From assembly GCA_050174015.1 (NCBI GenBank), contig JBFXKG010000012.1, forward strand, positions 44,622 through 108,621: a DNA stretch of 64,000 nucleotides, written 5' to 3'. A program made the position numbers and the translations under genes. A model generated the notes under the pieces. The model was not told the DNA's origin, did not search any database, and saw only the letters and a program-made list of their open reading frames with translations. The DNA comes from Candidatus Krumholzibacteriia bacterium (GTDB taxonomy: Bacteria > Krumholzibacteriota > Krumholzibacteriia > LZORAL124-64-63). Positions 11,869 to 25,986 of the stretch are shown here, piece by piece. How positions within the stretch are numbered: the stretch's first letter is position 1; the number at the start of each line of letters is the position of its first letter.

Positions 11869-12825
11869 TTGCGGACACGAACAAAACTTCGGGTTGAGCT
11901 GACGAGGCACGCCCTGGCGAGGGCGGCCGGGTTGGCTCTGGCGACGGGCCTCCTGCTGGCCCTGCCCGTGCTCGCCGCCCAGGGAGGGGCGGGCCAGGTT
12001 TGCCTGGATTGTCATGAGGATCAAGCAAGCAGTCTGGAATTCGGACCCCACAGCCTTTCCCCGGGCGGCGAGGGCAGGTTGAACTGCCTGTCGTGCCATG
12101 ACGGCGACCCCCGACACTGGGAGGACGATCCTTCTTCCTACCCCATGGCCAATCCGGCCGACATGGGCGGCGAGGAGGCCGGCAGGCTCTGCGGCCGGTG
12201 CCACGATTCGGTCCACCAGATCAACCAGCAGACGGTCAGCCCCCATGCGGCCGCCGGCGTCTCCTGCCTGGCCTGCCACCAGGTCCACGGCAGCGAGCTC
12301 CGCGGGTCGCTGGTCTCGGAGCAGCCGGGACTCTGCTTCGGATGCCACGCAGGGCAGCGGGCCGACTTCGCCCAACCGTTCCATCACCCTGCCGACGAAG
12401 GGTTCATGGACTGCAGCGATTGCCACCTGAAGTCCGACGACGGGTGGGATTCCCTGGTGATGCGCGGCGGCGACGCCGTCTGTCTCGGTTGCCATGCCGA
12501 GTTCCAGGGGCCGTTCCCCTTCGAACACCAGGCCGGAGTGGGATACTCCACCGAGGAGGGCAGCTGCCTCAACTGTCACGAGCCCCACGGTTCGGCCCAT
12601 CCCCGGCTGCTGAAGCAGCCTTACGAGGGGCCCCACTTCCAGCTCTGCTCCCAGTGCCACTCGGTTCCCGGGCACCGCGACAACAGCCAGCACGGAACGG
12701 AGTGGGCGGACATGGCCTGCGGTGAGTGCCACGTGGACATCCACGGCTCCTACACCAGCAGCAAGTTCTTCGCGCCGATCATCGAGGCCCAGGGCTGCAA
12801 CACCCTGGGTTGCCACCAGCGGTAG
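11869..12825 (+). CDS. MtrA/DmsE/PioA-like periplasmic decaheme cytochrome c, plus one CX4CH motif
   Basis: 10 CXXCH (CLDCH, CLSCH, CGRCH, CLACH, CFGCH, CSDCH, CLGCH, CLNCH, CSQCH, CGECH), GPFPFEH and CHEPHGS DmsE-type segments, signal peptide; TTG start is uncertain. Confidence 0.88.
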   Translation: MRTRTKLRVELTRHALARAAGLALATGLLLALPVLAAQGGAGQVCLDCHEDQASSLEFGPHSLSPGGEGRLNCLSCHDGDPRHWEDDPSSYPMANPADMGGEEAGRLCGRCHDSVHQINQQTVSPHAAAGVSCLACHQVHGSELRGSLVSEQPGLCFGCHAGQRADFAQPFHHPADEGFMDCSDCHLKSDDGWDSLVMRGGDAVCLGCHAEFQGPFPFEHQAGVGYSTEEGSCLNCHEPHGSAHPRLLKQPYEGPHFQLCSQCHSVPGHRDNSQHGTEWADMACGECHVDIHGSYTSSKFFAPIIEAQGCNTLGCHQR

Positions 12826-12837
12826 GAGGAGGCTGAA

Positions 12838-14400
12838 ATGCGACGGATTGCAACGATTTCAAGCCTGGCCGCCCTGCTGCTCGTGCTGGCCTTGCCGGCG
12901 GCTGCGGAATCCCTGAAGGGGACGGTCAAGCTCGGAGTCATCACCAAGGACGAGGACACGAGCGACGTGACGGCCATCCAGGAGACGGTCAACATCCACG
13001 ACGGATTCTCCGTCACCCAGGTGGCCCTGCGCGGGGCCCTGGGCGGCGGCAGCGCCTTCCGCCTCGACCTGGAGGAGATGAACCTCGATTCGCGGCGGGG
13101 TTACTTCAACTACCGGCTGCAGGATCGCCTCCACCTGACCGCGCGTTACGATCGCCGCCGGCATCTCTTCGACGCCGACGGGGCCGTGGAGAGCGAACGG
13201 GAGAAGTGGATGTTCGGCGCGAGGGTGACCCCGGCGGACTGGCTGCGGATCACCGGGGACTATTCCCGGCAGACCCGCCAGGGCGACCGTCTTGGTTACG
13301 GGGCCGGCTTCCAGAGCTGGCTGGGCGACGCCTACGATTACACCTTCGGGATCGGCCGGGTGGAGGCCGAGGCGCGCCGGGGCGCCCGGGCCTTCGCGGT
13401 CGGATTCGAGACCAGCAGCTTCGAGGACGCCCAGCTGACCGCGGCCGACCGGACCGGGCAGGTCTTCTCGGCCCGCGCCAACCTGCCTTGCCTGCTGTGG
13501 CCCGGCAAGCTGTCGCACTACCTGCGGGGCACCCTCGGCGAGCAGAAGCTCGACCAGGGGGGATTGGCCTACACCATGTCGACCTTCCAGTACGTCGGCG
13601 TCGCGCGGCCCGTCCGGCCCTTCCAGCTCGACTACCGGTTCTTCGGCAGCAGGGTGGAGGACGACGCCACCGGCCTGCAGACCGACGAGGTCCGCAACGA
13701 CTTCGACCTGACCTGGCATCACGCCCACGGCAAGGTCTTCGGCGGTTACGGCTACTTCACCAACGACAACGAGAGGTCGCTGACCAGCGACAACGTCTGG
13801 CGCGTCGGGACGGTGGTCGGCGACGGCAAGGTCTTCAAGGGCAAGGTCAGCTACGCCAGCAGCGAGAAGACGGACACCGAAGGCCTGACCCTCCTGAAGG
13901 ACATCGAGGCCAGCCGGCTCCGGTTTAGCCTGGACGTCAATCCCGACGACAAGATGAACTTCGGCGTCTCCTACATCGACCATGACCGGACCTTCCCGGT
14001 CATCGGGGTGGAATCCTCCGGACTCCGCTACGCGGCCCGGGGCGGCTACCGGCTGGACGGCCTCGGCGCCTTCAACCTGACCTACAGCTATTCGGACGAC
14101 GAATACCAGGACCTGGCAGGCTCCTTCCAGGCGGACAACCACGCCGTGACCGGTCGTCTGGACATCGATCGCTTCCGCGACCTGAAACTGTCGGCGGGGC
14201 TGACTTACCTCGACATCGGCAAGGACCTGGACATCGAGAAGTCCATCCTGATGTTCGCCGGCGAGTACGCCCTGCAGGACGATTACTTCGTGGAGGTGAA
14301 ATACAACGTCTACAACTACGACGATTTCATCCTCATGGATCGCTACTACACCGCGAACGTGGTGTGGGTGAATGTCGGCTACAAGCTTTCGATCGACTAG
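12838..14400 (+). CDS. Outer-membrane beta-barrel, MtrB/PioB-like porin
   Basis: Signal peptide, alternating amphipathic Tyr/Gly-rich strands, no CXXCH, directly after the decaheme gene with a GGAGG RBS; 520 aa. Confidence 0.78.
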   Translation: MRRIATISSLAALLLVLALPAAAESLKGTVKLGVITKDEDTSDVTAIQETVNIHDGFSVTQVALRGALGGGSAFRLDLEEMNLDSRRGYFNYRLQDRLHLTARYDRRRHLFDADGAVESEREKWMFGARVTPADWLRITGDYSRQTRQGDRLGYGAGFQSWLGDAYDYTFGIGRVEAEARRGARAFAVGFETSSFEDAQLTAADRTGQVFSARANLPCLLWPGKLSHYLRGTLGEQKLDQGGLAYTMSTFQYVGVARPVRPFQLDYRFFGSRVEDDATGLQTDEVRNDFDLTWHHAHGKVFGGYGYFTNDNERSLTSDNVWRVGTVVGDGKVFKGKVSYASSEKTDTEGLTLLKDIEASRLRFSLDVNPDDKMNFGVSYIDHDRTFPVIGVESSGLRYAARGGYRLDGLGAFNLTYSYSDDEYQDLAGSFQADNHAVTGRLDIDRFRDLKLSAGLTYLDIGKDLDIEKSILMFAGEYALQDDYFVEVKYNVYNYDDFILMDRYYTANVVWVNVGYKLSID

Positions 14401-14438
14401 TTGCAAGTCATGACGCCCGTCACAAGGAGGATCCGATA

Positions 14439-15428
14439 ATGACGGCAGCCCGCAAAAACCTGATGATCCTGATCTGCCTCGTGTCGTTGCTGGCCCTCGG
14501 CGCCTGTACCCGCGAGATCACCTACACCCAGGTGAACGAGAGCGCCTCGAGCTGCTTCGACTGCCACAACGATCAGGACACCTTCCTGATGGAAGCCCAG
14601 CTCGAGTGGACCTACTCCATGCACGCCATCGGCGCCAACGTCGCCTATGCCGGCGGCCGCAGCGGATGCTCCAATTGCCACTCCGGGGCGGGCTTCGAAG
14701 CTGCCCTGGCCGGCGAAACCGCAGTTCCTTACGCGACGTCCATCCGCTGCTTCAGCTGCCACGCTCCCCACACCAACGAGGACTTCCAGCTGCGGGTGAC
14801 GGAGGCCCAGACCCTGGCTGACGGAACGGTCCTGGACATCGGGGACGGCAATCTCTGCCTGTCCTGCCACCAGGCCCGCCGCGACGTGGCCACCGAGATC
14901 GTGGCCGACGACGAGGGCAACTACGTCATCCCCAGCAGCCACTGGGGCCCCCACCACGGTCCCCAGGGCGACCTCCTGGCCGGGACCAACGGCTACGAGT
15001 TCGAGGGCTACACCTACCGCAGTGCGGCTCCTCCGGCCCACCTGGCCAACGGCTGCATCAGCTGCCACTTCGCCGAGAACAGTGCCGCGGACCTGGGCGG
15101 CCACTCGTTCAACATGACCAACGCCGCCGGCGCCATGAACGTCAACGGCTGCAACCTCTGCCATACCGACCTGACGGACTTCAACTACGAAGGCCGCGTG
15201 GCGGAGATCGACGAGCTGGGCGAGGAACTGCACGCCCTGCTGGTCGCCGAGGGGACGGTCGACGAGGACGGGCATCCGATCCAGGACGCCGTCACGACCC
15301 TCGAGGGGAAGGCCGCGACGTGGAACTTCCTGTTCTGGGAAGAGGACCGGAGCCACGGCGTCCACAACCCCGACTATGCCGAAGACCTGCTCCGGGCCTC
15401 GATCGCGGTCATGAGCGGCGAGAAGTAG
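14439..15428 (+). CDS. Hexaheme c-type cytochrome lipoprotein (C-terminus resembles Geobacter OmcB-type surface cytochromes)
   Basis: Lipobox LALGA-C; 6 CXXCH (CFDCH, CSNCH, CFSCH, CLSCH, CISCH, CNLCH); C-terminal DRSHGVHNPDYAEDLL; AAGGAGG RBS. Confidence 0.85.
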   Translation: MTAARKNLMILICLVSLLALGACTREITYTQVNESASSCFDCHNDQDTFLMEAQLEWTYSMHAIGANVAYAGGRSGCSNCHSGAGFEAALAGETAVPYATSIRCFSCHAPHTNEDFQLRVTEAQTLADGTVLDIGDGNLCLSCHQARRDVATEIVADDEGNYVIPSSHWGPHHGPQGDLLAGTNGYEFEGYTYRSAAPPAHLANGCISCHFAENSAADLGGHSFNMTNAAGAMNVNGCNLCHTDLTDFNYEGRVAEIDELGEELHALLVAEGTVDEDGHPIQDAVTTLEGKAATWNFLFWEEDRSHGVHNPDYAEDLLRASIAVMSGEK

Positions 15429-15465
15429 GCTTGACCTACAGCGGGGAGTCGTTCCCCGGTTGAAA

Positions 15466-15493
15466 CGGCGGGCGGGGGATTCCCCGCCCGCCG
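15466..15493 (+). terminator. Hairpin ending the porin-cytochrome operon
   Basis: CGGCGGGCGGGG-GATT-CCCCGCCCGCCG, a perfect 12-bp stem, followed by an AT-rich promoter-like stretch (about 15510-15570). Confidence 0.65.
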
Positions 15494-15612
15494 GCGTTTA
15501 CAGGGGTCTTTCCCGTTAGGAAGTAAACGATGTTATTTTGTTAACGAATTTTGTTTTACTTTAGTCAGGTCTCATATTGGCCACGTGGATTGGGGAATCG
15601 GAGGTGATCCCG

Positions 15613-16029
15613 GTGGCCATGCCCCCCCCGGAGCCCAAGGCGGTGCTCCACCTGAGAATCGTCCTGTGGGCGGCGGCCCTTCACTCGTTCGCCGTCGGTC
15701 TGGGCCTCATCCTGCACCCGGCGCCCGTCCTGGCCTTTTTCGGCTATGCCCCCCTGACCGAACCGTTCTTTCCCACCCAGGGGGGCGTCTTCCACGTCCT
15801 GATGGCCGTGGGCTACGCGATGGGGGCCGTCCATCCGAACCGCTTCCGGTGCCTGGTGATCTTCGCGGTCATCGTGAAGACGGCGGCCACCGTTTTCCTG
15901 CTCACCTACTGGTCCCTGGTTTCCCCCCTGTTGATCGTCCTGCTGTCCGCAGTGGGCGACGGCGTCCTCGCCGCCGCGCTGTGGTTGACGTATCGCCGCT
16001 GGCGCCGGTCCGTGCGCCTGGGAGGTTGA
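15613..16029 (+). CDS. Small integral membrane protein (about 4 TM), function unknown
   Basis: Four hydrophobic segments; GTG 15613 after GGAGG (ATG 15619 is an alternative); stop is 2 nt before the next ATG. Confidence 0.75.
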   Translation: MAMPPPEPKAVLHLRIVLWAAALHSFAVGLGLILHPAPVLAFFGYAPLTEPFFPTQGGVFHVLMAVGYAMGAVHPNRFRCLVIFAVIVKTAATVFLLTYWSLVSPLLIVLLSAVGDGVLAAALWLTYRRWRRSVRLGG

Positions 16030-16031
16030 GG

Positions 16032-17711
16032 ATGGACAAGCAGCTTCCCGGAATCGTCGTCACCGGGGCTTCGGGTTTCGTCGGCCGGCATTTCCTGGCC
16101 AGCGCGGCGGGCCGCTACCGCCTGTTCTGCCTGGCCCGGCGCTCCCGTTCGGAGGCGGGCGTTCCCGAGGATCCCAACCTGCGCTGGACCCAGGTGGACA
16201 TCGCCAAGTGGGACACCATGCGCCAGGTGGTCAACTGCGTGAAGGAGCATGGCGGGGCGGACTACGTCCTGCACCTGGCGGGATATTACGACTTCAAGTT
16301 CATGGAGCATCCGGAGTACGAGCGGACGAACGTCCTGGGGACCCGGAACGTCCTGAAGCTGGCCAAGCAGCTCGGGGTCAAGCGGTTCCTGTTCGCCAGC
16401 TCCCTGGCGGCCTGCCGTTTCCCCCCCGCCGGCGGCAGCGTGAACGAGGATTCCCCCGCCGATGCGGAATTCGCCTACGCCCGGAGCAAGCGCCAGGGGG
16501 AGGACATGGTGCGGGACAGCGCCGAGTGGTTCCCCGGCGCCATCATCCGGCTCGCGGCGGTCTTCAGCGACTGGTGCGAGTATCCGCCCCTCTACGTATT
16601 CCTCCAGACCTGGTTGGGACAGCGCTGGAACAGCCGGATCCTCGGCGGTAAGGGAAATTCCGCGGTCACCTACATCCACATCCAGGATCTGGTGAAGCTC
16701 TTCCACACGGTGATCGAGAAGAGCGATTCCCTGCCTCGGATCGGCGTCTACAACGCGAGTCCCAACTTCTGCACCAGCCACCGGGATCTCTTCCAGATCG
16801 CCACGCGCTACTACACGGGCGAGCAGGTGCGCCCGCTCTTCATGCCCCGGCGTCTGGCGGGTCCGGGCATCTATCTCCGCTGGTGGCTGGGCCGTCTGGT
16901 GGGGCGGATTCCCTTCGAGGCCCCGTGGATGACCAGGTACATCGACCGTCAGCTGGTGGTGGACGCCTCGCGGACCTACGAGGCGCTGGGCTGGAGCCCC
17001 GCGCGCCGGTCGGACATCTCCCGCAGGTTGCTCCTGATGATCGAGAACATGAAGGCCCACCGGGAGACCTGGAACCAGCGCAACGAGGCCGCCCTGCGCC
17101 GGGTGGCGCGGCGGCCGAACTTCGTCATCGCGGAGGCCCTCCAGGAGATGCGGGAGCATTGCCTCGGGCTCCTCGAGGATTTCGTGGCCGATCCAGGCCA
17201 TCGGGACCGGTTCCCCCACTACAGCCTGATGGAACCGGAAGCCATGCGGTGGTTCCTCACCTTGATCTATCAGGTCCTTTATTCCGCGGTCCAGACGCGG
17301 GACCGCCAGCTGATGCGCCACTACGCCCAGGTCATCGCGGCCAGGCGACGCCAGGAGGGTTTCGAGGCATCCGAGGTCATGGACCTGATGACTTCGGTGG
17401 GCGAGATCGTCAGCGAGGCCCTGCGCCGCAGGCGGGACCTGGAGGACCTGGGCCAGCAGATCCACGACCACGTGGTGCTCAGTTTCCAGCTGGCCATCGA
17501 CGCGGTGGAGGACGCCTACGAGACGATGGAGTCGCGTCCCCAGGAACTTGACGAGCGGCTGGGCGGGGTGGAACTCCCCACCAACGCGTCCGATCTCGAA
17601 CACATGGTCCATCAGCTCAGCGACATCTGTGACGAGGCCCTGCCTTCGCTGTACGGCGGGACGGGCCGTCCGTTGACGCGGGAACAGGTCCTGGGAAAGG
17701 GGCAGCCATGA
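16032..17711 (+). CDS. Extended SDR (NAD-dependent epimerase/dehydratase) fused to a C-terminal helical RsbRD_N/globin-like domain
   Basis: VVTGASGFVG, HLAGYY, FASSLAA, YARSK (YxxxK). C-terminal about 170 aa helical with RRRQEGFEASEV. Start set at MDKQL (16032). Confidence 0.8.
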   Translation: MDKQLPGIVVTGASGFVGRHFLASAAGRYRLFCLARRSRSEAGVPEDPNLRWTQVDIAKWDTMRQVVNCVKEHGGADYVLHLAGYYDFKFMEHPEYERTNVLGTRNVLKLAKQLGVKRFLFASSLAACRFPPAGGSVNEDSPADAEFAYARSKRQGEDMVRDSAEWFPGAIIRLAAVFSDWCEYPPLYVFLQTWLGQRWNSRILGGKGNSAVTYIHIQDLVKLFHTVIEKSDSLPRIGVYNASPNFCTSHRDLFQIATRYYTGEQVRPLFMPRRLAGPGIYLRWWLGRLVGRIPFEAPWMTRYIDRQLVVDASRTYEALGWSPARRSDISRRLLLMIENMKAHRETWNQRNEAALRRVARRPNFVIAEALQEMREHCLGLLEDFVADPGHRDRFPHYSLMEPEAMRWFLTLIYQVLYSAVQTRDRQLMRHYAQVIAARRRQEGFEASEVMDLMTSVGEIVSEALRRRRDLEDLGQQIHDHVVLSFQLAIDAVEDAYETMESRPQELDERLGGVELPTNASDLEHMVHQLSDICDEALPSLYGGTGRPLTREQVLGKGQP

Positions 17712-18181
17712 CCTCCGACAGGGATAGCAGGAAGAGCGGCTGGGAAGACCTGGCCTGGCGCAGTACGCGCTACAACGACCGGACCGTGCTCAAGTCCGGA
17801 TCGTTCCTGAACACCTTCTGCCCGCACTGCGGCGCCTCCCTCCTCCACGAGGGGATGGTGTTGCTGGAAACGGTCACGGCCGAGGGCGTGGAGGGCCGTC
17901 TGGAGCTCAGCCCCTACCTGAACGTGTTCGAGAGGCGCAGCGACATCCACATTCCCGAAGGCCAGGAGGTCAAGGACCTGCGCTGCAGCAGCTGCCACGC
18001 CTCCCTGAAGGCCGAAGGCCGGGTGTGCGGGGACGGACAGTCGGCGGTGGCCTGCGTCCTGGTGGGGATCTCGACCATCCGGGTGCCTTTCTTCTTCTGC
18101 ATGCGGGAGGGCTGCCGCTGGCAGCTCATCGACCCCGACGACGAGCACAAGATCATCCTGGACGACAGCAGGGAGTGGTAG
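17708..18181 (+). CDS. Cytoplasmic Cys-rich, putative metal-binding hypothetical protein
   Basis: CPHC, CSSC(H), C..C and CMREGC motifs; no signal peptide; ATGA overlap with the SDR gene. Confidence 0.75.
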   Translation: MTSDRDSRKSGWEDLAWRSTRYNDRTVLKSGSFLNTFCPHCGASLLHEGMVLLETVTAEGVEGRLELSPYLNVFERRSDIHIPEGQEVKDLRCSSCHASLKAEGRVCGDGQSAVACVLVGISTIRVPFFFCMREGCRWQLIDPDDEHKIILDDSREW

Positions 18182-18185
18182 ACCC

Positions 18186-19987: not shown

Positions 19988-19989
19988 CC

Positions 19990-20988
19990 ATGGCGACTTC
20001 GCTCGAAAAATCCCCGTTCCTGACCTCCTCCGACTTCAACGTCGCCTCCAGTCCGCACTGGCGCGACGGCAGTTCGCTCGCCCAGATCCAGGTGCTGTGG
20101 CTCGTCGCCCTGATGCCCGCGGTCTGGGGGGCCTGGAGCCATTTCGGTCTGACGGGTGTGCGGGTCCTCTGCCTGGCCACCGCCACGGCGGTGATGTGGG
20201 ACGCCCTGGGCAACCGGATCTTCCCGGGCAAGGACCACACGACCAACCTCAGCAGCGTGACCCTGGGCCTGCTGCTGGGCCTGATCCTGCCGGTGGACGC
20301 CCCCTGGTGGCTGGTCACGGTCGGCACCTTGATGATGATCATGGTCGGCAAGAAGATGTTCGGGGGCTGGGGCGGATATCCGGTCCACCCGGTGGCGCTG
20401 AGCTACGCCATGCTCGCGGTCTCCTGGCCGGGACGACTGGACCGGACGGCGGCCCTGGCCGGGCTGGACTGGCCGGTGACCATGATCGAGCCCCTGCGCC
20501 TGGTCAAGACCCTGGGCCCGGCGGCCGAAGGGGCCTTCGCGCCCCTGGACCTGTTGCGCGGCGACCAGGTGGCGGGGGTGGGGGACGGGATGGTGATCCA
20601 CCTCGCCGCCGGCGGCCTTCTGCTGGTCCTGCTGCGCCAGGTTCCCTGGCAGATCCCGGTGGGGACGCTGCTGGGAACCGCGGGTACCGCGGCGGCCCTC
20701 GCCTGGCTGACCCCGGACAGGGTGGCGTCGGCCCAGTTCCATCTGCTGACCGGGGGCACGGTCCTCATGGCGTTCTTCCTGCTGGCCGAGCACACGACCT
20801 CCCCGGTGAACGCCCGACCGATGCTGCTCTACGGGCTGCTGGCGGGGTTGCTGATGGTCCTCATCCGCACCTTCAGCAGCCACGTCGACGGGGGCATGTT
20901 CGCGCTCCTGCTGGTGAACCTGTGTTCCCCCCTGCTGGACCGCTGGGTTCCCCGTCTCAAGGGTTTGGAGGTGGGAAGCGATGCGTGA
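19990..20988 (+). CDS. rnfD: RnfD-like membrane subunit lacking the FMN-carrying Thr
   Basis: SSPHWR, GKKMFGGWG...HPVA, AEHTTSP, FALLLVNL; VTMIEPL where RnfD has (S/T)GATPL. Confidence 0.88.
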   Translation: MATSLEKSPFLTSSDFNVASSPHWRDGSSLAQIQVLWLVALMPAVWGAWSHFGLTGVRVLCLATATAVMWDALGNRIFPGKDHTTNLSSVTLGLLLGLILPVDAPWWLVTVGTLMMIMVGKKMFGGWGGYPVHPVALSYAMLAVSWPGRLDRTAALAGLDWPVTMIEPLRLVKTLGPAAEGAFAPLDLLRGDQVAGVGDGMVIHLAAGGLLLVLLRQVPWQIPVGTLLGTAGTAAALAWLTPDRVASAQFHLLTGGTVLMAFFLLAEHTTSPVNARPMLLYGLLAGLLMVLIRTFSSHVDGGMFALLLVNLCSPLLDRWVPRLKGLEVGSDA

Positions 20989-21568
20989 CATCGGCCGTCT
21001 CGTCCTGGTTCTGGTGGCGATCTGCTCGCTCAGCGCAGCCTCCCTGTCCTACGTGAGGACGTCGCTGGCGACCCGGATCGAACAGCAGGGCGACTACTAC
21101 GTCAGGGGACCGGCCCTGGCCCGGCTGTTCCAGCAGCCGGCTTCCCAGCTGCTGGCCAACAAGGTCAAGATCACCAGGGATGGGATCGAGTATCCGGTCT
21201 TTTTCCGGAAGGACGGGGAGCAGGTCACCGGTCTCGCGGTGGAAGCCTCCGGCCAGGGAGGCTACGGCGGTCCCATCGTGATGATGATCGGGATCGATCT
21301 GGCCACCGACACGGTCCTGGGCGTGGAGATCGTCTTCCACAGCGAGACCCCCGGCCTGGGCGCCCAGGTCGAGAAGGCCGGGTTCCGGCAGCAATGGGTC
21401 GGGCTTCCCCTGGGGTCGTCCGTGGCCCTCGCCGGGTCCGGAGGGTCGGTGGACGCCATCACCGGGGCGACCTTCTCCTCCAGCGCCATGGTGGACGGAA
21501 CGAACCAGGTCCTTGACCTGATGAACACGAACAGGGCAGCCATTCTGGCCGAGATCGCCGGTCGCTGA
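20981..21568 (+). CDS. rnfG: RnfG periplasmic FMN-binding subunit
   Basis: N-terminal anchor, GYGGPI, HSETPGLG, covalent-FMN motif DAITGATFSS intact. Confidence 0.92.
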   Translation: MRDIGRLVLVLVAICSLSAASLSYVRTSLATRIEQQGDYYVRGPALARLFQQPASQLLANKVKITRDGIEYPVFFRKDGEQVTGLAVEASGQGGYGGPIVMMIGIDLATDTVLGVEIVFHSETPGLGAQVEKAGFRQQWVGLPLGSSVALAGSGGSVDAITGATFSSSAMVDGTNQVLDLMNTNRAAILAEIAGR

Positions 21569-21593
21569 CCGGGGAGCCGACGGGAGCGGGATC

Positions 21594-22205
21594 ATGGATT
21601 TCAAGCAGGCGTTGACCCACGGTTTCTGGCGCGACCTGCCGCCTTTCCGCCTGGTGCTGGGGCTGTGCCCCTCGCTCGCGGTGACCGCCGCGGCGGAGAA
21701 CGGTTTGGGCATGGGGCTGGCGGTCACCTTCGTGCTGATCTTCAGCAACATGTTCATCTCGCTGCTGCGCCGGGTGATCCCCGACAAGGTGAGGATCGCC
21801 AGCTACATCGTCGTCATCGCCACCCTGGTGGTTCTGGTGGAGCTGAGCATGAAGGCCTTCTTCTTCCCGCTCTCGCAGCAGCTCGGCATCTACATCCCCC
21901 TGATCGTGGTGAACTGCATCATCCTGGGACGGGCCGAGGCCTTCGCCAGCCGCAACCCGGTGCTGATCTCCATGGCCGACGGCCTGAGCGTGGGCCTGGG
22001 CTTCACCGTTTCGTTGACCCTGGTGGGATCGCTGCGGGAGATCCTGGGCTCGGGCACCTGGTTCGGGATGGGACTTTTCGGTCCGGGCTTCGAGCCGTTC
22101 GGTTTCATGGTCAAGGCCCCGGGCGCCTTCCTCTGCCTGGGGGTGCTGCTGGGGCTCATGAACGCGTGGAGCCGCCGCCGCGGGGAAATCTTCGTCCAGA
22201 CCTGA
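21594..22205 (+). CDS. rnfE: RnfE membrane subunit
   Basis: LGLCPSLAVT, IYIPLIVVNCIILGRAE, PGAFL. Confidence 0.95.
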   Translation: MDFKQALTHGFWRDLPPFRLVLGLCPSLAVTAAAENGLGMGLAVTFVLIFSNMFISLLRRVIPDKVRIASYIVVIATLVVLVELSMKAFFFPLSQQLGIYIPLIVVNCIILGRAEAFASRNPVLISMADGLSVGLGFTVSLTLVGSLREILGSGTWFGMGLFGPGFEPFGFMVKAPGAFLCLGVLLGLMNAWSRRRGEIFVQT

Positions 22206-22217
22206 GGAGCGTGACTC

Positions 22218-22793
22218 GTGGATCTGATCATCCTGGCCGTCGGGGCCATCTTCGTGCAGAACATCCTGCTCGCGCAGTACCTGGGCAACTGCCCGTTCTG
22301 CGGCGTCTCCAAGAAGACGGGGACCGCCGTCGGCATGGGGGTCGCGGTGATCTTCGTGGCCACCCTGGCCTCGATCTTCACGTGGCTGGCCTATTACCTG
22401 CTCCTGGTGCCGCGCCACCTGGAGTACCTGCAGACCATGGTCTTCATCCTCATCATCGCCGCCCTGGTCCAGCTGGTGGAGATCTTCCTGAAGAAGCAGA
22501 GCAGGACCCTGTACGACGCCCTGGGCATCTACCTGCCCTTGATCACGACCAACTGCGCCGTGATGGGCATCGCCCTGCTGAACATCAAGCACGGGTTCGG
22601 TTTCGTGGAGATGGTGGTGTATTCCGCGGCGAGCGCGGCGGGATTCGCCCTGGCGATCATCCTGTTCGCAGGAGTGCGGGAGCGGATGTTCCTGGCGCCC
22701 GTCCCCAAGGCGATGCGCGGCACCGCCATCGCCCTGGTCACGGCCGGGATCATGTCGCTCGCGTTCATGGGGTTCGCGGGCATGGGCAAGTAG
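22218..22793 (+). CDS. rnfA: RnfA membrane subunit
   Basis: YLGNCPF, LGIYLPLITTNCAVMG, GVRER; GTG start after GAGGAG. Confidence 0.95.
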   Translation: MDLIILAVGAIFVQNILLAQYLGNCPFCGVSKKTGTAVGMGVAVIFVATLASIFTWLAYYLLLVPRHLEYLQTMVFILIIAALVQLVEIFLKKQSRTLYDALGIYLPLITTNCAVMGIALLNIKHGFGFVEMVVYSAASAAGFALAIILFAGVRERMFLAPVPKAMRGTAIALVTAGIMSLAFMGFAGMGK

Positions 22794-22809
22794 CAGCCGA
22801 GGAGTCGAC

Positions 22810-24909
22810 ATGCTGGTTCCGGCAATGGTACTCGGGGGCATCGCGGCGGTGGCGGCCGTCGCCCTCGGCATCGCGGCGCGGATCTTCCACGTGGAGGAGG
22901 ATCCCCGCTTCAAAGGCGTGGCCGACCTGCTGCCCGGCGCCAACTGCGGCGGCTGCGGTTTCGCCGGCTGCTCGGCCTGCGCCGAGGCCATCGTGCGCGG
23001 CCAGGCCGAGGTGAACGCCTGCGTGGTCGGCCAGACCGATACCGCCCGGCAGGTGGCGGCCTTCCTGGGCATGGAGATGGTGGACAACGAGCCCCAGATC
23101 GCCTGCCCCGACTGTCGGGGGGGGATCCGGGCGACGCGCAAGTACGACTACGCGGGGTTCGACGACTGCCGGGCCGCCATGCAGCTCTTCCACGGTCCCA
23201 CCGTCTGCGACCACGGCTGCCTCGGTCTGGGGACCTGCATCCGGGCCTGCCAGTTCGGCGCCATCCGGATGGGGGACGAGGGCCTGCCGGTCTTCGATCC
23301 CTTGAGGTGCGTCGGTTGCGGCTCCTGCGTGCGGGCCTGTCCCAAGGGGATCATCTCCATCATCAGCGAGACCACCAAGATCCTGCACTGGAACCGCTAC
23401 AGCGAGTGCCTGGCGCCCTGCCGCCAGAAGTGCCCGGCCCAGGTCAACGTGCCCAAGTACATCGAGCACATCCGCAAGGGCGAGTACGCCCAGGCCCTGA
23501 TGACGGTGCGGGAAAGCAATCCGCTGCCCCTGAGCACCGGGCGGGTCTGCCCCGAACCCTGCTCCCTGGCCTGCCGGCGCCAGATCGAGGACGAACCGGT
23601 GGCCATCAACTACCTCAAGCGGTTCCTGGCCGACTGGGAGATGGAGCAGGAGACCAGGCTGCACATCCCCGTCGCCCCGGACACGGGCAAGCGGATCGCG
23701 GTGATCGGCGGGGGACCGGCCGGGCTGAGCGCCGCCTACTATCTGCGCCGCCTCGGCCACGCGGTCGCCATCTTCGAGAAGATGCCTGCCCTGGGCGGCA
23801 TGCTGCGCTACGGCATTCCCGAGTACCGGTTGCCCAAGCGGATCCTGGACTGGGAGATCCAGGGCATCCTGGGCCTGGGCATCCAGGCGACCTGCAACGT
23901 GGAGCTCGGCAAGCACTTCAGCATCGACTTCCTGCGGGCCGAGGGCTTCGACGCCATCTTCATGGCCGTGGGCGCCTGGCTGGACAAGGGCCTGGGCCTG
24001 GACGAGGACGGTCTGGAGGGCGTGGCGCCCGGCATCAAGTTCCTCGAGACCTACCACCACCAGAAGGACATCACCGTCACCGGGAGGGTGGCGGTCATCG
24101 GCGGCGGCAACACCGCCATCGATTGCGCCCGGACGTCCCTGCGGTCGGGCGCCGAGAAGGTGACCATCGTCTACCGTCGCAGCCGCGACGAGATGCCGGC
24201 CAATCCCGCCGAGATCATCGCCGCCGAGGAGGAAGGCATCGAGTTCCGCTTCCTCAGCGCACCGAGCTGCATCCTGAGCGAGGATGGGCGGGTCACGGGG
24301 CTGGAGGTCCTGCGCATGGAACTCGGCGAGCCCGACCCCAGCGGCAGGCGCCGTCCCGTGCCGGTGGCGGGCAGCGAGGAGACCGTGCCCTGCGACCTGA
24401 TCATCGAGGCCGTGGGCCAGGAGCCCGACCTCGAATTCCTGAAGTCCGAGGGCATGCCCAAGCTGCCGCTCACCCGCTGGAACACCATCGACGCCAAGGA
24501 GGAGACCCTGCAGACGGACGTCCCGTTCATCTTCACGGGGGGGGACTGCTTCACCGGTCCCGGCCTGATGGTGGAGGCCATCGGAGCGGGCCGGTACGCC
24601 GCCCGGTCCATCCACTACTACGTGACCGACGGGGTGATTCCCCCGATCGAGCACCGTCAGACCGACCTGATTCCCGCCTCGCTGTTCGAGTCGATCAGCG
24701 GGGTGGAGGAGAAGCCCAAGGTGCACGAACCCATCGTGTCGCTGGAGGACCGGCTGGGGACCTTCAAGGAGGTCGAGGGCACCATCGACGAGGAGGACGC
24801 GGTCTACGAGGCGAGCCGGTGCCTGCACTGCGGGACCTTCTGCTACGACCACGACCTCGAGGTGGCCAGGCAGGAGGCGGAACAGGACAGGATGCAGGAG
24901 AGCACCTGA
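22810..24909 (+). CDS. rnfB: RnfB fused to a GltD/NfnB-like FAD/NADP(H) oxidoreductase module
   Basis: LPGANCGGCGFAGCSAC, CLGLGTCIRAC, CVGCGSCVRACP; then PCRQKCP...GRVCPEPCSLAC, IGGGPAG (FAD), IGGGNTAID...YRRS (NADP-type), EASRCLHCG. Confidence 0.9.
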   Translation: MLVPAMVLGGIAAVAAVALGIAARIFHVEEDPRFKGVADLLPGANCGGCGFAGCSACAEAIVRGQAEVNACVVGQTDTARQVAAFLGMEMVDNEPQIACPDCRGGIRATRKYDYAGFDDCRAAMQLFHGPTVCDHGCLGLGTCIRACQFGAIRMGDEGLPVFDPLRCVGCGSCVRACPKGIISIISETTKILHWNRYSECLAPCRQKCPAQVNVPKYIEHIRKGEYAQALMTVRESNPLPLSTGRVCPEPCSLACRRQIEDEPVAINYLKRFLADWEMEQETRLHIPVAPDTGKRIAVIGGGPAGLSAAYYLRRLGHAVAIFEKMPALGGMLRYGIPEYRLPKRILDWEIQGILGLGIQATCNVELGKHFSIDFLRAEGFDAIFMAVGAWLDKGLGLDEDGLEGVAPGIKFLETYHHQKDITVTGRVAVIGGGNTAIDCARTSLRSGAEKVTIVYRRSRDEMPANPAEIIAAEEEGIEFRFLSAPSCILSEDGRVTGLEVLRMELGEPDPSGRRRPVPVAGSEETVPCDLIIEAVGQEPDLEFLKSEGMPKLPLTRWNTIDAKEETLQTDVPFIFTGGDCFTGPGLMVEAIGAGRYAARSIHYYVTDGVIPPIEHRQTDLIPASLFESISGVEEKPKVHEPIVSLEDRLGTFKEVEGTIDEEDAVYEASRCLHCGTFCYDHDLEVARQEAEQDRMQEST

Positions 24910-25986
24910 TCAGGAACCGGCGCCCGTCCTCAGGCGGTAGCGGTCCGCGTAGCCGGGCAGGACGGCGATCCTGCCGGCGAGGCCCGGGGTGGGGATGACG
25001 TCGATCTCGCCGGGGCCGGGACCGGGCACGACGAAGACGGCTTCGACTCCGGGGTGGTGGCGGGCGAGCAGCAGCGCCCCCTGCTCGGGCCCCAGGATGA
25101 ACAGGGTCGTCGAGAGCCCGTCGGCGAGGATCCCCGTGGGGGCGATGACGGTCGCGCTGAGGGTCCCGGCGGCCGGGCTGCCGGTGGCGGGATTCATGAT
25201 GTGACCGTACCGCACGCCGTCGATGGTCACGAACTTCTCGTAGGATCCGCTGGTCGCCACGGCCGCGTTCGAGACGGTGACGGTGGCGAAGATCCGGGTC
25301 TTGTCCAGGGGATCCTTGATCCCCACCCGCCAGTCGGCCCGGCCAGGCGCCCCGCCCAGGCAGAAGAGGTTTCCCCCCAGGTCGATCAGGCCGCCCTTGA
25401 CCCCTGCGGCGCGCAGGCGGGCGACGGCCAGATCCACGGCCAGGCCCTTGGCGATCCCGCCCAGATCGAACCGGGTCCCCCCCGATTCCTTGACCACGGC
25501 CCGCCCCTCCTGGACGAAGCGCCAGCGTCCCAGGAGGGCCCGGGCCGAGTCCACGGCCGCCGCACCCGGCAGGACCCCCCGCTTCCGGTGGAATCCCCAC
25601 AGGTCCAGCAGGGCGCCGGCGGTGGGGTCGAAGGCCCCGCCGCTCTGTTCTCCCAGCTGCCGGGACAGTTCCAGGCAACGGCCCAGCCAGGGCGATACGG
25701 CGACGGCGGAGTCCGCGGGGGCGCGGTTCAGGCGGCTGATCGCGGAATCCGGGCGCCGGATGCTCAGCTCCGACTCCAGGGAATCGTACACCGCCTGCAC
25801 CAGGGCCTCGGCCCGGGAGGCATCCAGCCCCGGGGGCAGCTCGAGGGAACAGGCGGCCACCGTCCCCATGCTGGCGAATTCGAAACTGCCCGAGGCGGGG
25901 CCGGGCGAGGATGAGCGGCAAGCCGGAAGGGCGGCCAGGAGGGGAACCAGGAACATGGCGGGAATCCGCAGGGTTCGGCTGATCAT
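24910..25986 (-). CDS. apbE: ApbE/Ftp FAD:protein FMN transferase (lipoprotein)
   Basis: SMGT, FDPTAG, DLGGIAKGLAVD, LGGN, ATSGSYE, GHIMNP, ADGLST; lipobox ALPA-C; start set at MISRT; stop abuts the rnfB stop (TGATCA). Confidence 0.92.
   Translation of the reverse strand: MISRTLRIPAMFLVPLLAALPACRSSSPGPASGSFEFASMGTVAACSLELPPGLDASRAEALVQAVYDSLESELSIRRPDSAISRLNRAPADSAVAVSPWLGRCLELSRQLGEQSGGAFDPTAGALLDLWGFHRKRGVLPGAAAVDSARALLGRWRFVQEGRAVVKESGGTRFDLGGIAKGLAVDLAVARLRAAGVKGGLIDLGGNLFCLGGAPGRADWRVGIKDPLDKTRIFATVTVSNAAVATSGSYEKFVTIDGVRYGHIMNPATGSPAAGTLSATVIAPTGILADGLSTTLFILGPEQGALLLARHHPGVEAVFVVPGPGPGEIDVIPTPGLAGRIAVLPGYADRYRLRTGAGS

What the first reader, a model, noticed from the sequence alone, without database searches (positions are those of the whole stretch)
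11869..25986. Candidate NADPH-to-cell-surface electron conduit: porin-cytochrome operon adjoining a rewired Rnf with its own c3 cytochrome
Seen: 12 co-directional genes plus apbE. They encode a decaheme, a beta-barrel porin, a hexaheme lipoprotein, three accessory genes, a hexaheme c3 and RnfCDGEAB, with 22 CXXCH motifs in total. Established: canonical Rnf passes electrons ferredoxin > RnfB > RnfAE FeS > RnfG-FMN (outside) > RnfD-FMN > RnfC > NAD+. Seen here: the inward half (RnfB, A, E, G) keeps its ligands and RnfB gains an NADP(H) module, while the return half (RnfD FMN-Thr, RnfC NADH site) is degenerate. Inference: electrons may leave at RnfG to the c3 cytochrome, then the MtrA/MtrB-like pair and the surface lipoprotein (or flow the reverse way), making a half-Rnf coupled to extracellular electron transfer. 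Caveats: cytochrome-associated Rnf is known in Desulfovibrio and Methanosarcina, and I recall long-RnfB variants in Desulfobacteraceae, so novelty needs checking. A hairpin at 15466-15493 shows there are two transcription units.
Basis: partly seen in the sequence, partly recalled or inferred. Interest (0 to 1): 0.88.

Follow-up and report, generated by a model that had tools for sequence, protein, structure and literature searches.

The report
Cytochrome-linked Rnf variant beside outer-membrane conduit
Two neighbouring operons in a probable Krumholzibacteria genome encode an outer-membrane cytochrome conduit of the Shewanella MtrAB kind and an already described variant ("Rnf2") of the Rnf ion pump. 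In Rnf2 the NAD(P)H site has moved to another subunit and the complex has its own periplasmic cytochrome. The two operons could together carry electrons between NADPH and the cell surface, but they are neighbours in only a minority of related genomes.

Summary
There are 13 co-directional genes, not 12, plus a convergent apbE.

Operon 1 (11869-15428) is a self-contained porin-cytochrome cassette: an MtrA/DmsE-like decahaem, a 26-strand barrel whose model matches MtrB (6R2Q_B, TM 0.72), and a hexahaem lipoprotein.

Operon 2 (15577-24909) is an Rnf complex with these features:
- RnfB is fused to an NfnB/GltD-type NAD(P)H-FAD module.
- RnfC lacks the NADH/FMN loops.
- RnfD has Glu168 where the FMN-Thr should be.
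- RnfG, RnfA, RnfE and RnfB keep all their ligands, and RnfC keeps both [4Fe-4S] clusters.

Across 62 comparable loci these traits co-vary almost perfectly, so this is a class of enzyme and not decay. That class is already in the literature as the "Rnf2" or Desulfobacula toluolica Tol2-type Rnf: large RnfB, NADH-less RnfC and a cluster-encoded cytochrome c3, with function untested. The RnfD threonine loss is not mentioned in the papers I could search.

The conduit cassette lies next to Rnf2 in only 2 of 9 cassette lineages and 2 of about 10 FCB Rnf2 lineages. A CbcL-like quinol route is also present. The NADPH-to-surface chain is therefore plausible but unproven.

Verdict: a new member, in new phyla, of a known kind; moderate interest.

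The parts
11869..12825 (+). Periplasmic decahaem cytochrome c, MtrA/DmsE-like, with a signal peptide
   Evidence: It has 10 CXXCH plus one CX4CH. It scores 163 bits (E 8e-48) against TIGR03508 DmsE-family decahaem, below the cutoff of 192, and 138 bits against the GSU2203 family. It is always the first gene of the conserved three-gene cassette.
12838..14400 (+). Outer-membrane 26-strand beta-barrel, MtrB-type porin
   Evidence: The AlphaFold2 model has pLDDT 87 and 26 strands. The top Foldseek PDB hit is 6R2Q_B, MtrB of the Mtr complex, with E 2.4e-15 and TMq 0.72; the next hits are 22-strand TonB receptors at TM 0.51 or below. The Pfam MtrB_PioB match is only 17.7 bits, below the cutoff. The family has at least 184 clusters, nearly all unnamed.
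14439..15428 (+). Hexahaem lipoprotein cytochrome, the presumed cell-surface partner
   Evidence: It has 6 CXXCH and the lipobox L-G-A-C23. The match to MtrC/MtrF domain II/IV is weak, at 29.6 bits, just below the cutoff of 30. It is always the third gene of the cassette.
15466..15493 (+). GC-rich hairpin between the two gene groups, followed by an AT-rich stretch
   Evidence: It is a perfect 12-bp stem with a 4-nt loop. The region folds at -53.3 kcal/mol with z = -4.1. There is no U-tract, and the terminator scan does not call it.
15577..16029 (+). Small membrane protein (orf150) with no known family, paired with the SDR gene
   Evidence: Its GC3 is 0.89, against 0.48 for the overlapping frame. 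It has no Pfam hit. Homologues at 43-54% identity lie directly upstream of the SDR gene in L017, L002, L006, L007 and L024.
16032..17711 (+). SDR/NAD-dependent epimerase-dehydratase domain with a helical C-terminal extension of about 300 aa
   Evidence: It matches PF01370 at E 1.7e-29. It is conserved next to the Rnf cluster in the FCB clade only, either upstream (L001, L003, L017, window) or downstream (L002, L006-L008, L024).
17708..18181 (+). Cytoplasmic Cys-rich Zn-ribbon-like protein (157 aa)
   Evidence: It gives only a sub-threshold double zinc ribbon hit. The pattern CPxC...CxxC...C...C...C and a C-terminal DSxEW are conserved. It lies immediately upstream of the cytochrome gene in the FCB clade and in the Desulfocapsaceae/Geopsychrobacteraceae clade.
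18186..18689 (+). Membrane-anchored periplasmic hexahaem cytochrome c, a deleted form of the octahaem of Rnf2 clusters
   Evidence: It has 6 CXXCH and an N-terminal hydrophobic anchor. It matches PF14522 Cytochrome_C7. Alignment with 12 orthologues shows that they carry 8 haem motifs and that the window lacks a segment of about 48 aa holding motifs 2-3.
18707..19987 (+). RnfC of the Rnf2 type: it keeps the 2x[4Fe-4S] clusters and has lost the NADH/FMN loops
   Evidence: It scores 172 bits against TIGR01945, below the cutoff of 246, and has no PF01512 hit. Alignment to 9ERI_C and 7ZC6_C shows GLGGATFPT replaced by SPWTTPGPN and NGAECEP replaced by VGVNQEP. A clade of about 69 clusters is set apart from canonical RnfC by a large score gap. 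S134, P135 and W136 are invariant, T137 is nearly so, and 8 Cys are invariant.
19987..20988 (+). RnfD without the flavinylation threonine (Glu168, codon 20488-20490)
   Evidence: It matches PF03116 at E 3e-68. In the alignment to 7ZC6_D, E168 falls at the covalent-FMN Thr (Thr153 as named in PMC9588780). The same loss is seen in 39 of 41 GltD-type loci.
20981..21568 (+). RnfG, the periplasmic FMN subunit, with its flavinylation motif intact (TGAT, T164)
   Evidence: It matches PF04205. The best NCBIfam model is RnfG_DVU2794. The S/T-G-A-T/S motif is kept in every locus examined.
21594..22205 (+). RnfE, with both metal-ligand cysteines kept (C25, C108)
   Evidence: It matches PF02508 at E 5e-63. 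The Cys columns are conserved in 18 of 18 canonical loci, and in 22 of 23 (C25 column, one gap) and 23 of 23 (C108 column) GltD-type loci. It is 67-91% identical across the class.
22218..22793 (+). RnfA, with both metal-ligand cysteines kept (C25, C113)
   Evidence: It matches PF02508 at E 1e-53. The Cys columns are conserved in all loci.
22810..24909 (+). RnfB (residues 1-195) fused to an NfnB/GltD-type module with two [4Fe-4S] clusters, FAD and an NAD(P)H site (residues about 196-699)
   Evidence: Pfam domains are PF04060 plus Fer4, PF14691 and PF07992. It scores 517 bits against NF009410, above the cutoff. The C-terminal part matches the NfnB/StnC-like modules 9BOV_A, 9N5U_A and 8OH5_C, NfnI 5JCA_L and GltD 2VDC_G; the N-terminal part matches RnfB 9ERI_B and 7ZC6_B. 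GGGPAGL(300-306), GGGNTAID(431-438) and VYRR(454-457) are present.
24910..25986 (-). ApbE flavin transferase lipoprotein, convergent with rnfB
   Evidence: It matches PF02424 at E 2e-76. It has the lipobox LPAC23. An apbE gene is adjacent in many Rnf2-type loci.

Best explanation
The region holds two separate, individually conserved modules that happen to be neighbours in this lineage.

(1) An MtrAB-type porin-cytochrome cassette. A periplasmic decahaem is threaded into a 26-strand outer-membrane barrel and is capped outside by a hexahaem lipoprotein. Together they carry electrons across the outer membrane.

(2) An Rnf2-type (Desulfobacula toluolica Tol2-type) Rnf complex. Its most likely mode of action is as an ion-coupled NAD(P)H:periplasmic-cytochrome-c oxidoreductase. 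The inferred path is: NAD(P)H reduces the FAD of the NfnB/GltD-like module fused to RnfB; electrons run through the RnfB [4Fe-4S] clusters to the RnfA/RnfE metal centre, cross the membrane to the ApbE-attached FMN of RnfG, and leave to the membrane-anchored multihaem cytochrome encoded just upstream of rnfC. They do not return through RnfD-FMN and RnfC to NAD+. The path is reversible in principle.

In this organism the reduced cytochrome can then feed periplasmic acceptors, of which the neighbouring conduit is one candidate.

Shown: gene identities, the cofactor-ligand pattern, the class-wide co-variation, the MtrB fold and the published existence of the Rnf2 type. Inferred: the direction of flow, the RnfG-to-cytochrome step, ion coupling and any hand-over to the decahaem.
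For: -
- Co-variation over 62 loci: 41 of 41 GltD-type RnfB loci lack the RnfC NADH/FMN loop; 39 of 41 lack the RnfD Thr/Ser; at least 32 of 41 have a cytochrome gene with 4 or more haems directly upstream of rnfC; 19 of 21 plain-RnfB loci have the Thr, the canonical RnfC and no cytochrome.
- RnfG keeps its flavinylation motif everywhere, and apbE is adjacent.
- The NAD(P)H module is homologous to the NADPH-binding NfnB/StnC/GltD modules and keeps GxGxxG, GxGxxA and YRR. Reading YRR as NADPH-specific rests on my own knowledge of GltD.
- The RnfD Thr is the covalent FMN site in the solved Rnf (PMC9588780).
- The literature describes the same type and proposes that the cytochrome is an additional entry or exit point. 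It also reports that RnfC needs a partner other than NAD+ (PMC5109826; PMC11887813 supplement).
- Rnf2 subunits are made abundantly and constitutively in Desulfobacteraceae.
- Conduit: DmsE-family decahaem, 26-strand model with MtrB as by far the best structural match, lipobox cytochrome, and a three-gene cassette conserved in 9 lineages.
- Adjacency to Rnf2 recurs in two lineages with different gene orders.
Against: - The 'return half' is not discarded. RnfD is well conserved, RnfC keeps all eight cluster cysteines, and the loop that replaces the NADH site is itself conserved. This argues that RnfC and RnfD still do redox or partner-binding work.
- A non-covalent flavin in RnfD cannot be excluded.
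- The groups that study Rnf2 still draw it as linking the ferredoxin and NAD(H) pools.
- At least some GltD-type loci show no adjacent cytochrome gene: up to 9 of 41, some because of contig ends or my window criterion.
- In D. multivorans the cluster cytochrome was detected only in lactate-grown cells.
- In D. alaskensis, whose Rnf is the other, Rnf1 type, loss of the operon's decahaem had no phenotype although rnf mutants did (PMC4215793).
- The conduit is next to Rnf2 in only 2 of 9 cassette lineages.
- A CbcL-like multihaem/cytochrome-b fusion, the conventional quinol-side feeder, lies beside such cassettes in L081 and L086, and a homologue starts at 63174 in this window.
- No interaction or activity was tested.
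Confidence: 0.5

Rival explanations
1. Rnf2 is still a full-loop, ion-translocating ferredoxin:NAD(P)+ oxidoreductase with its substrate sites redistributed. NAD(P)H binds the RnfB fusion, and ferredoxin or another low-potential carrier docks on the RnfC [4Fe-4S] domain. Electrons still pass through RnfD, using a non-covalent flavin or riboflavin. The cytochrome is an optional side branch. The conduit next door is fed by a quinol-dependent CbcL-like enzyme, and its adjacency to Rnf2 is incidental.
For: - The RnfC clusters and the RnfD fold are strictly conserved.
- The cassette is unlinked to Rnf2 in 7 of 9 lineages.
- CbcL-like genes lie beside the cassette in L081 and L086, and one starts at the window's end.
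- dhcA is dispensable in D. alaskensis.
Against: - The covalent FMN site of RnfD, which bridges RnfG-FMN and the cytoplasmic side in solved Rnf and Nqr, is gone in 39 of 41 loci. The replacing residues are diverse (E, Y, A, P, D, W), which is not what a conserved alternative flavin site would show.
- The loss correlates tightly with gain of a periplasmic cytochrome gene.
- Adjacency of the cassette and Rnf2 arose or persisted in two different gene orders.
Confidence: 0.3
2. The same machinery runs inward. Electrons taken up at the cell surface (from Fe(II), reduced humics, a partner cell or a cathode) pass through the MtrAB-type conduit and the periplasmic cytochrome to RnfG. They are then pushed uphill to NAD(P)+ by cation influx through RnfA/E/D. 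Rnf2 would thus be a reverse-electron-transport route for making NADPH.
For: - MtrAB-type conduits work in both directions in different organisms (Mto/Pio, as reviewed in PMC3903129).
- Krumholzibacteria MAGs have been reported with both iron-oxidation and iron-reduction markers (PMC7914226).
- Rnf is reversible.
- SRB with Rnf2 oxidise periplasmic donors.
Against: - Characterised Fe(II)-oxidising MtoAB/PioAB systems lack an outer lipoprotein cytochrome, whereas this cassette has one. This comparison rests on my own knowledge.
- Nothing in the window points to autotrophy.
- Direction cannot be read from sequence.
Confidence: 0.12
3. The NfnB-like FAD of the RnfB fusion is a flavin-based electron-bifurcating site. 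NADPH oxidation would send one electron down the exergonic membrane path to the high-potential cytochrome and the other to a low-potential acceptor (ferredoxin).
For: The best structural relatives of the fused module are the NADPH-binding subunits of the bifurcating enzymes NfnI (5JCA_L), StnC-like 8OH5_C and Nfn-type 9N5U_A/9BOV_A.
Against: - GltD and dihydropyrimidine dehydrogenase carry the same module without bifurcating.
- No second acceptor branch is recognisable in RnfB beyond the usual cluster chain.
- No ferredoxin gene is found in the cluster.
Confidence: 0.05

Closest known systems
Rnf2 / Desulfobacula toluolica Tol2-type Rnf of Desulfobacteraceae (Wöhlbrand 2016 Proteomics 16:973, as cited in PMC5109826; PMC11887813 with supplement)
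   Same: - RnfB of about 700 aa carrying a pyridine-nucleotide oxidoreductase/NAD-binding domain.
- RnfC without the NADH/FMN domain.
- A cytochrome c gene inside the cluster.
- Gene order cyt-rnfCDGEAB.

Desulfobacterales loci in my set share all the traits tested.
   Different: - Here it is in an FCB-group (probably Krumholzibacteria) genome.
- RnfC keeps its N-terminal barrel-sandwich domain and a conserved SPWTTPG loop, whereas the Desulfobacterales RnfC has a deletion there.
- The cytochrome belongs to an octahaem family and is cut down to six haems here.
- Extra conserved genes are present: the Zn-ribbon protein, the SDR gene and orf150.
- The published descriptions call the other subunits 'very similar' and do not mention the RnfD threonine loss.
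Canonical Rnf (Acetobacterium woodii 9ERI, Clostridium tetanomorphum 7ZC6, Azotobacter 8AHX)
   Same: - Six homologous subunits.
- RnfA/E cysteines, RnfB N-terminal clusters, RnfG flavinylation site and RnfC 2x[4Fe-4S] are all present.
   Different: - No NADH/FMN site in RnfC.
- No FMN-Thr in RnfD.
- An NAD(P)H-FAD module on RnfB.
- An associated multihaem cytochrome.
Na+-NQR (NqrA-F)
   Same: The logic is the same. The NADH dehydrogenase module sits on the subunit that feeds the NqrD/E (= RnfA/E) centre, and the RnfC homologue NqrA has no NADH site. A 2024 paper draws the same analogy for Desulfovibrionaceae (PMC11434368). RnfC here gives a weak NqrA hit.
   Different: - NqrF is an FNR-type FAD/[2Fe-2S] protein, not a GltD-type one.
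- NqrB keeps its covalent FMN, and the exit is to quinone.
- NqrA has no Fe-S clusters.
- Nqr has no cytochrome partner.
Methanosarcina acetivorans Rnf with the multihaem cytochrome MmcA
   Same: An Rnf whose electrons leave through a co-encoded multihaem cytochrome to non-NAD acceptors, including extracellular ones. The Methanosarcinales locus L039 also lacks the RnfC NADH loop.
   Different: - The donor is ferredoxin through a plain RnfB, with no NAD(P)H module.
- The acceptor is methanophenazine.
- It is archaeal, with no outer membrane and no porin-cytochrome partner.
Desulfovibrio DhcA-RnfCDGEABF (D. alaskensis G20, D. vulgaris)
   Same: - A multihaem cytochrome gene heads the operon and apbE (rnfF) ends it.
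- RnfG here scores best against the DVU2794-type model.
   Different: - It is reported to be of the small-RnfB (Rnf1) type.
- dhcA mutants have no phenotype.
- I could not retrieve those sequences to test their RnfC and RnfD sites.
Shewanella MtrCAB and Geobacter porin-cytochrome (Pcc) complexes
   Same: - A periplasmic decahaem of the DmsE/MtrA family.
- A 26-strand barrel with the MtrB fold.
- An outer lipoprotein multihaem cytochrome.
- The three genes form one cassette.
   Different: - The barrel is 520 aa, against about 650-700 aa, and falls below the Pfam MtrB_PioB threshold.
- The outer cytochrome has 6 haems, not 10, and shows only a faint MtrC-domain match.
- The gene order is A-B-C.
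- The decahaem is below the TIGR03508 cutoff.

Membership tests
Canonical Rnf (ferredoxin:NAD+ oxidoreductase, RnfABCDGE) | Six subunits RnfA-E and G encoded together | tested here: met
   All six are found in the order CDGEAB.
Canonical Rnf (ferredoxin:NAD+ oxidoreductase, RnfABCDGE) | RnfC with a NuoF-like NADH/FMN site (GxGGAxFPT, NGAECEP; PF01512) | tested here: not met
   There is no PF01512 hit. The loops are replaced by SPWTTPG and VNQEP. The protein scores 172 bits against TIGR01945, below the cutoff of 246.
Canonical Rnf (ferredoxin:NAD+ oxidoreductase, RnfABCDGE) | RnfD threonine that carries covalent FMN | tested here: not met
   Glu168 aligns with the Thr of 7ZC6_D (Thr153 as named). 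The protein scores 177 bits against TIGR01946, below the cutoff of 207.
Canonical Rnf (ferredoxin:NAD+ oxidoreductase, RnfABCDGE) | RnfG flavinylation motif, RnfA/E ligand cysteines and RnfB clusters | tested here: met
   TGAT (T164) is present, as are RnfA C25/C113, RnfE C25/C108 and 14 RnfB cysteines.
Canonical Rnf (ferredoxin:NAD+ oxidoreductase, RnfABCDGE) | Ferredoxin:NAD+ oxidoreductase activity coupled to Na+/H+ transport | not testable with these tools
   This needs an enzyme assay.
Rnf2 / Tol2-type Rnf | [quoted passage not shown] | tested here: met
   RnfB is 699 aa. PF04060 plus Fer4 is followed by PF14691 and PF07992.
Rnf2 / Tol2-type Rnf | RnfC lacking the NADH-ubiquinone oxidoreductase/FMN-binding domain | tested here: met
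   However, the N-terminal barrel-sandwich domain (PF13375) is retained here.
Rnf2 / Tol2-type Rnf | A cytochrome c gene inside the cluster | tested here: met
   A hexahaem gene lies 18 nt upstream of rnfC.
Rnf2 / Tol2-type Rnf | Sequence relatedness to Desulfobacteraceae Rnf2 subunits | tested here: met
   Desulfobacterales loci (for example L023, L025, L035, L076) have a fused RnfB whose C-terminal GltD-like part is 53-56% identical to the window's (N-terminal part 46-51%), and an RnfE 60-62% identical. D. toluolica itself was not in my set.
MtrAB / porin-cytochrome complex | Periplasmic multihaem cytochrome of the MtrA/DmsE family | tested here: inconclusive
   It scores 163 bits (E 8e-48) against TIGR03508 over 255 of 258 profile positions, but the curated cutoff is 192. 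It has ten CXXCH.
MtrAB / porin-cytochrome complex | Large (26-strand) outer-membrane barrel of the MtrB type | tested here: met
   By fold: 26 strands, with 6R2Q_B as top hit at TM 0.72 and E 2e-15. By sequence profile it is not met: PF11854 scores 17.7 bits against a cutoff of 23.
MtrAB / porin-cytochrome complex | Surface-exposed lipoprotein multihaem cytochrome encoded alongside | tested here: met
   It has a lipobox and six CXXCH, and it is conserved as the third cassette gene. Surface exposure itself was not tested.
MtrAB / porin-cytochrome complex | Trans-outer-membrane electron transfer to or from extracellular substrates | not testable with these tools
   This needs physiology or proteoliposome assays.
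NfnB/GltD-type NAD(P)H-FAD-[4Fe-4S]2 module | Fer4_20 two-cluster domain, an FAD dinucleotide fold and an NAD(P)H dinucleotide fold | tested here: met
   PF14691 and PF07992 match. It scores 517 bits against NF009410, at or above the cutoff of 516. It aligns end to end with 9BOV_A, 9N5U_A, 4YLF_B and 2VDC_G.

The most novel reading that the evidence does not exclude
In Krumholzibacteria-like bacteria the Rnf2 complex works as a 'half-Rnf'. It bypasses the quinone pool and, with ion coupling, passes electrons from cytoplasmic NADPH through RnfG-FMN and its anchored cytochrome straight to an MtrAB-type conduit and the cell surface. Run backwards, it would draw extracellular electrons up to NADP+. 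The class-wide loss of the RnfD flavin site would be the structural signature of that broken return path.
Probability: 0.22. Interest if true: 0.75.

Novelty: new member of a known kind. Interest (0 to 1): 0.45.

Why it matters
Rnf2 belongs to the core genome of the Desulfobacteraceae, which carry out much of the carbon oxidation in marine sediments, and it is made abundantly there (PMC11887813). Its reaction has nevertheless 'awaited experimental verification' since 2016.

This work shows three things:
- The same type occurs in several FCB-group phyla.
- Its RnfD has lost the covalent-flavin threonine wherever RnfB carries the NAD(P)H module.
- A periplasmic cytochrome gene nearly always comes with it.

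Together these sharpen the question into a testable one: does the enzyme stop at RnfG and reduce a cytochrome? If it does, NAD(P)H could be coupled to periplasmic or extracellular acceptors without quinones. That would change how energy budgets of sulfate reducers and of uncultured iron-cycling phyla are drawn.

The neighbouring MtrAB-like cassette adds a widespread and so far unnamed family (at least 184 clusters, annotated 'hypothetical') of compact porin-cytochrome conduits.

Tried and rejected
- **Source contig.** An exact-sequence look-up of the window's RnfB found no record. The source was inferred instead from near-identical relatives (L019, L082, L083) and from named Krumholzibacteria hits.
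- **Decay of rnfC and rnfD.** I considered that the 'degenerate' sites mean decaying genes. I rejected this because the replacement motifs and all cluster ligands are conserved across phyla.
- **ORFs overlapping the cytochrome and rnfC (18292-19752; the start of 18374-19987).** These are high-GC artefacts. The real rnfC starts at 18707.
- **The 708-aa ORF at 15585.** It is an artefact upstream of 16032, where GC3 is 0.48. A different frame carries orf150.
- **Barrel as a TonB receptor or generic porin.** I rejected this on the fold search.
- **Terminator and promoter scans.** They gave nothing useful in this 68% GC DNA.
- **D. vulgaris and D. alaskensis Rnf sites.** I tried to learn whether their RnfC and RnfD share these sites by searching with a Desulfovibrio-MAG RnfB. 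Only large-RnfB relatives came back, so this remains untested.
- **Pereira et al. 2011.** The paper is not held in the library.
- **Reviews.** Two reviews (PMC12174285, PMC8238504) do not mention this Rnf type. It was found only through the Desulfobacteraceae genome papers.
- **Second structure job.** I did not use it. Without cofactors, a model of RnfC or RnfD would not settle electron-transfer distances. The lipoprotein cytochrome had no admissible alignment.

Full report
**What is there.**
The window is 64-72% GC, so mechanical ORF lists are crowded with artefacts. Third-position GC and homology resolve 13 co-directional genes between 11869 and 24909, plus a convergent apbE.
- The first three genes are a decahaem with a signal peptide (11869-12825), a 520-aa protein with no named family (12838-14400) and a hexahaem lipoprotein (14439-15428).
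- A 148-nt gap follows. It holds a perfect 12-bp GC hairpin at 15466-15493 and then an AT-rich stretch.
- Ten genes come next: a small membrane ORF (15577-16029), an SDR/epimerase with a long C-terminal extension (16032-17711), a Cys-rich 157-aa protein (17708-18181), a hexahaem cytochrome with an N-terminal anchor (18186-18689), and rnfC, D, G, E, A, B (18707-24909).
- The haem-motif count of 22 is correct.

**The Rnf residue claims.**
- HMMER alignments to the solved complexes show the RnfC loops GLGGATFPT and NGAECEP replaced by SPWTTPGPN and VGVNQEP. There is no Complex1_51K hit.
- In RnfD the motif VTTATPL of C. tetanomorphum aligns with VTMIEPL, so Glu168 stands where the covalently flavinylated Thr153 sits (PMC9588780).
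- RnfG keeps TGAT.
- Every cysteine column that is conserved in canonical RnfA, RnfE, the N-terminal 200 residues of RnfB and the ferredoxin domain of RnfC is also kept.
- RnfB residues about 196-699 are an NfnB/GltD-type module with two [4Fe-4S] clusters, FAD and an NAD(P)H site. The closest solved relatives are the NADPH-binding subunits of Nfn/Stn-type enzymes and GltD.

RnfC is not a wreck: its clusters and its replacement loop are conserved.

**It is a class, not an oddity.**
- A protein search with RnfC found about 69 clusters at 39-99% identity, all without PF01512. A large score gap separates them from ordinary RnfC.
- A scan of species-representative genomes returned 80 loci. I mapped all window proteins onto them and tabulated the diagnostic sites.
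- Of 41 loci whose RnfB carries the GltD-type module (38 fused, 3 split), 41 lack the RnfC NADH/FMN loop, 39 lack Thr/Ser at the RnfD site, and at least 32 have a cytochrome gene with 4 or more haems just upstream of rnfC.
- Of 21 plain-RnfB loci, 19 have the Thr, the canonical RnfC and no cytochrome. One of the two exceptions is Methanosarcinales, whose Rnf is known to work with the cytochrome MmcA.
- The carriers include Desulfobacterales, Desulfocapsaceae, Geopsychrobacteraceae, Desulfovibrionaceae and Aminicenantes, as well as an FCB-group clade (Krumholzibacteria, Zixibacteria, Calditrichota, MAGs labelled Fibrobacteraceae, Thermoanaerobaculales).
- The FCB clade and the Desulfocapsaceae/Geopsychrobacteraceae clade share a subclass signature: Glu at the RnfD site (xVEPLRL), an octahaem cytochrome of about 210 aa and the Zn-ribbon-like gene.
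- The window's cytochrome is that octahaem with an internal deletion that removes haem motifs 2 and 3. Its 93%-identical relative has the same 167-aa form.

**It is already known.**
- Papers on Desulfobacteraceae describe exactly this type as the D. toluolica Tol2-type Rnf, or Rnf2. [quoted passage not shown] Expression is abundant and constitutive, and the function is still unverified (PMC5109826; PMC11887813 and supplement).
- A 2024 survey of Desulfovibrionaceae saw the same thing but read it as loss of rnfB and gain of an 'FAD-dependent oxidoreductase' (PMC11434368).
- The fused protein is common in cultured Pseudodesulfovibrio, Maridesulfovibrio, Desulfocurvibacter and others, under assorted names.
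- Two things I did not find in the searchable literature. One is the RnfD threonine loss; the supplement calls the remaining subunits 'very similar'. The other is the occurrence of the type outside the Desulfobacterota.

**The upstream cassette.**
- The decahaem matches the DmsE/MtrA family over its full length, though below the curated cutoff.
- The 520-aa protein has only a sub-threshold MtrB_PioB hit.
- An AlphaFold2 model built on 53 homologues is confident (pLDDT 87) and has 26 strands.
- Its best PDB match by a wide margin is MtrB of the Shewanella Mtr complex (6R2Q_B, E 2.4e-15, TM 0.72). The next matches are 22-strand TonB receptors at TM 0.51 or below.
- With the lipobox cytochrome as the third gene, this is a compact MtrAB(C)-type porin-cytochrome cassette.
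- Its barrel family has at least 184 clusters, almost all 'hypothetical', largely from Krumholzibacteria and Eisenbacteria.
- The three genes keep their order and spacing in every context I fetched.

**Are the two modules linked?**
- From the cassette side, nine lineages were examined. Rnf2 is adjacent in the window's own lineage (L082/L083, same order) and in L081. In L081 the order is cyt-rnfCDGEAB-orf-SDR-(one reverse gene)-cassette, which is a different arrangement.
- In seven others (L084-L090) the neighbours are unrelated: beta-oxidation genes, efflux pumps, nitrate reductase, other MtrAB-like pairs.
- From the Rnf side, eight other FCB loci and all Desulfobacterota loci have no cassette within the fetched flanks.
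- Two adjacencies in different gene orders are more than a random 20-kb coincidence would predict. The link is nevertheless facultative, and the two cases may share ancestry.
- In L081 the cassette is followed by an 873-aa fusion of a 19-haem cytochrome c to a cytochrome b (PF01292), which is the architecture of Geobacter CbcL by my recollection. L086 has a similar gene near a second MtrAB-like pair.
- The ORF that runs off the window's end (63174-64000, at least 8 haems) is 53% identical to the N-terminus of the L086 protein. A conventional quinol-side feeder for the conduit therefore probably exists in this genome too.

**Mechanism.**
The pattern is best read as follows.
- The NAD(P)H site has moved onto the subunit that feeds RnfA/E.
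- The outward half is intact, with RnfG and ApbE retained.
- The covalent flavin that starts the return path is gone, replaced by varied residues.
- A periplasmic multihaem cytochrome has been gained.

On this reading electrons travel between NAD(P)H and the cytochrome through RnfB, RnfA/E and RnfG, with ion coupling at the RnfA/E/D core. This parallels Na+-NQR in where NADH enters and Methanosarcina Rnf-MmcA in where electrons leave.

Against it, RnfC and RnfD stay under clear selection, and the specialists' working model keeps Rnf2 between ferredoxin and NAD(H). The only genetic test of an Rnf-operon cytochrome (D. alaskensis dhcA, in an Rnf1-type operon) was negative.

**Verdict.**
The region adds a new phylogenetic home and one new diagnostic trait to a known but uncharacterised enzyme type, and it puts a name and a fold on a widespread unnamed conduit family.

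Noticed in passing
window 63174-64000 (+), runs off the end: This is a secreted multihaem cytochrome with at least 8 CXXCH and an MtrC/MtrF-domain hit. It is 53% identical over 263 aa to the N-terminus of a multihaem-c/cytochrome-b (PF01292) fusion in L086, and it is related to the 873-aa 19-haem fusion that follows the conduit cassette in L081. It is probably a CbcL-like quinol:cytochrome oxidoreductase.
   Followed up: partly
window 9848-10567 (-) and 10750-11466 (-): These are two paralogous (66% identical) secreted proteins of about 239 aa with no Pfam family. They lie directly upstream of, and divergent from, the conduit cassette. Both are also present in the 93%-identical relatives L082 and L083.
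   Followed up: partly
window 3394-5640 (+): This is a single 748-aa protein that fuses a class-V aminotransferase (NifS/cysteine desulfurase-like) to an AIR-synthase-related (SelD/ThiL-type) domain. The same fusion is present in L082 and L083.
   Followed up: no
window 32753-36790 (+) and 36451-39207 (+): These are two very large proteins (about 1345 and 918 aa) whose only recognisable part is a C-terminal FlgD_ig-like domain. Proteins with that C-terminal domain recur around the conduit cassettes in L081, L086 and L088, so it may be a sorting signal of this phylum.
   Followed up: no
window 26292-27953 (+): An FHA-GAF-SpoIIE (PP2C) phosphatase gene diverges from apbE at the end of the Rnf cluster. 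It is a possible regulator, but this was not examined in relatives.
   Followed up: no
L007 3370-4503 (+): In this FCB-clade MAG a 13-haem cytochrome ORF lies just upstream of the Zn-ribbon/octahaem/Rnf2 genes. This is a further case of extra cytochromes gathering at Rnf2 clusters.
   Followed up: no
L009 RnfB (L009:14053-16272), compared with window 22810-24909: The second dinucleotide fold reads VYRRSRD in the window and in the Desulfovibrio/Desulfobacterales forms, but LFRFSRD in the Desulfocapsaceae form. Nucleotide preference (NADPH against NADH) may therefore differ between subclasses.
   Followed up: no
L082 versus L083, intergenic region after the lipoprotein cytochrome gene (window 15429-15576): The gap between the conduit cassette and the Rnf-side operon is 148 nt in the window, 271 nt in L082 and 344 nt in L083, although the flanking genes are near-identical. 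This spacer is therefore variable.
   Followed up: no
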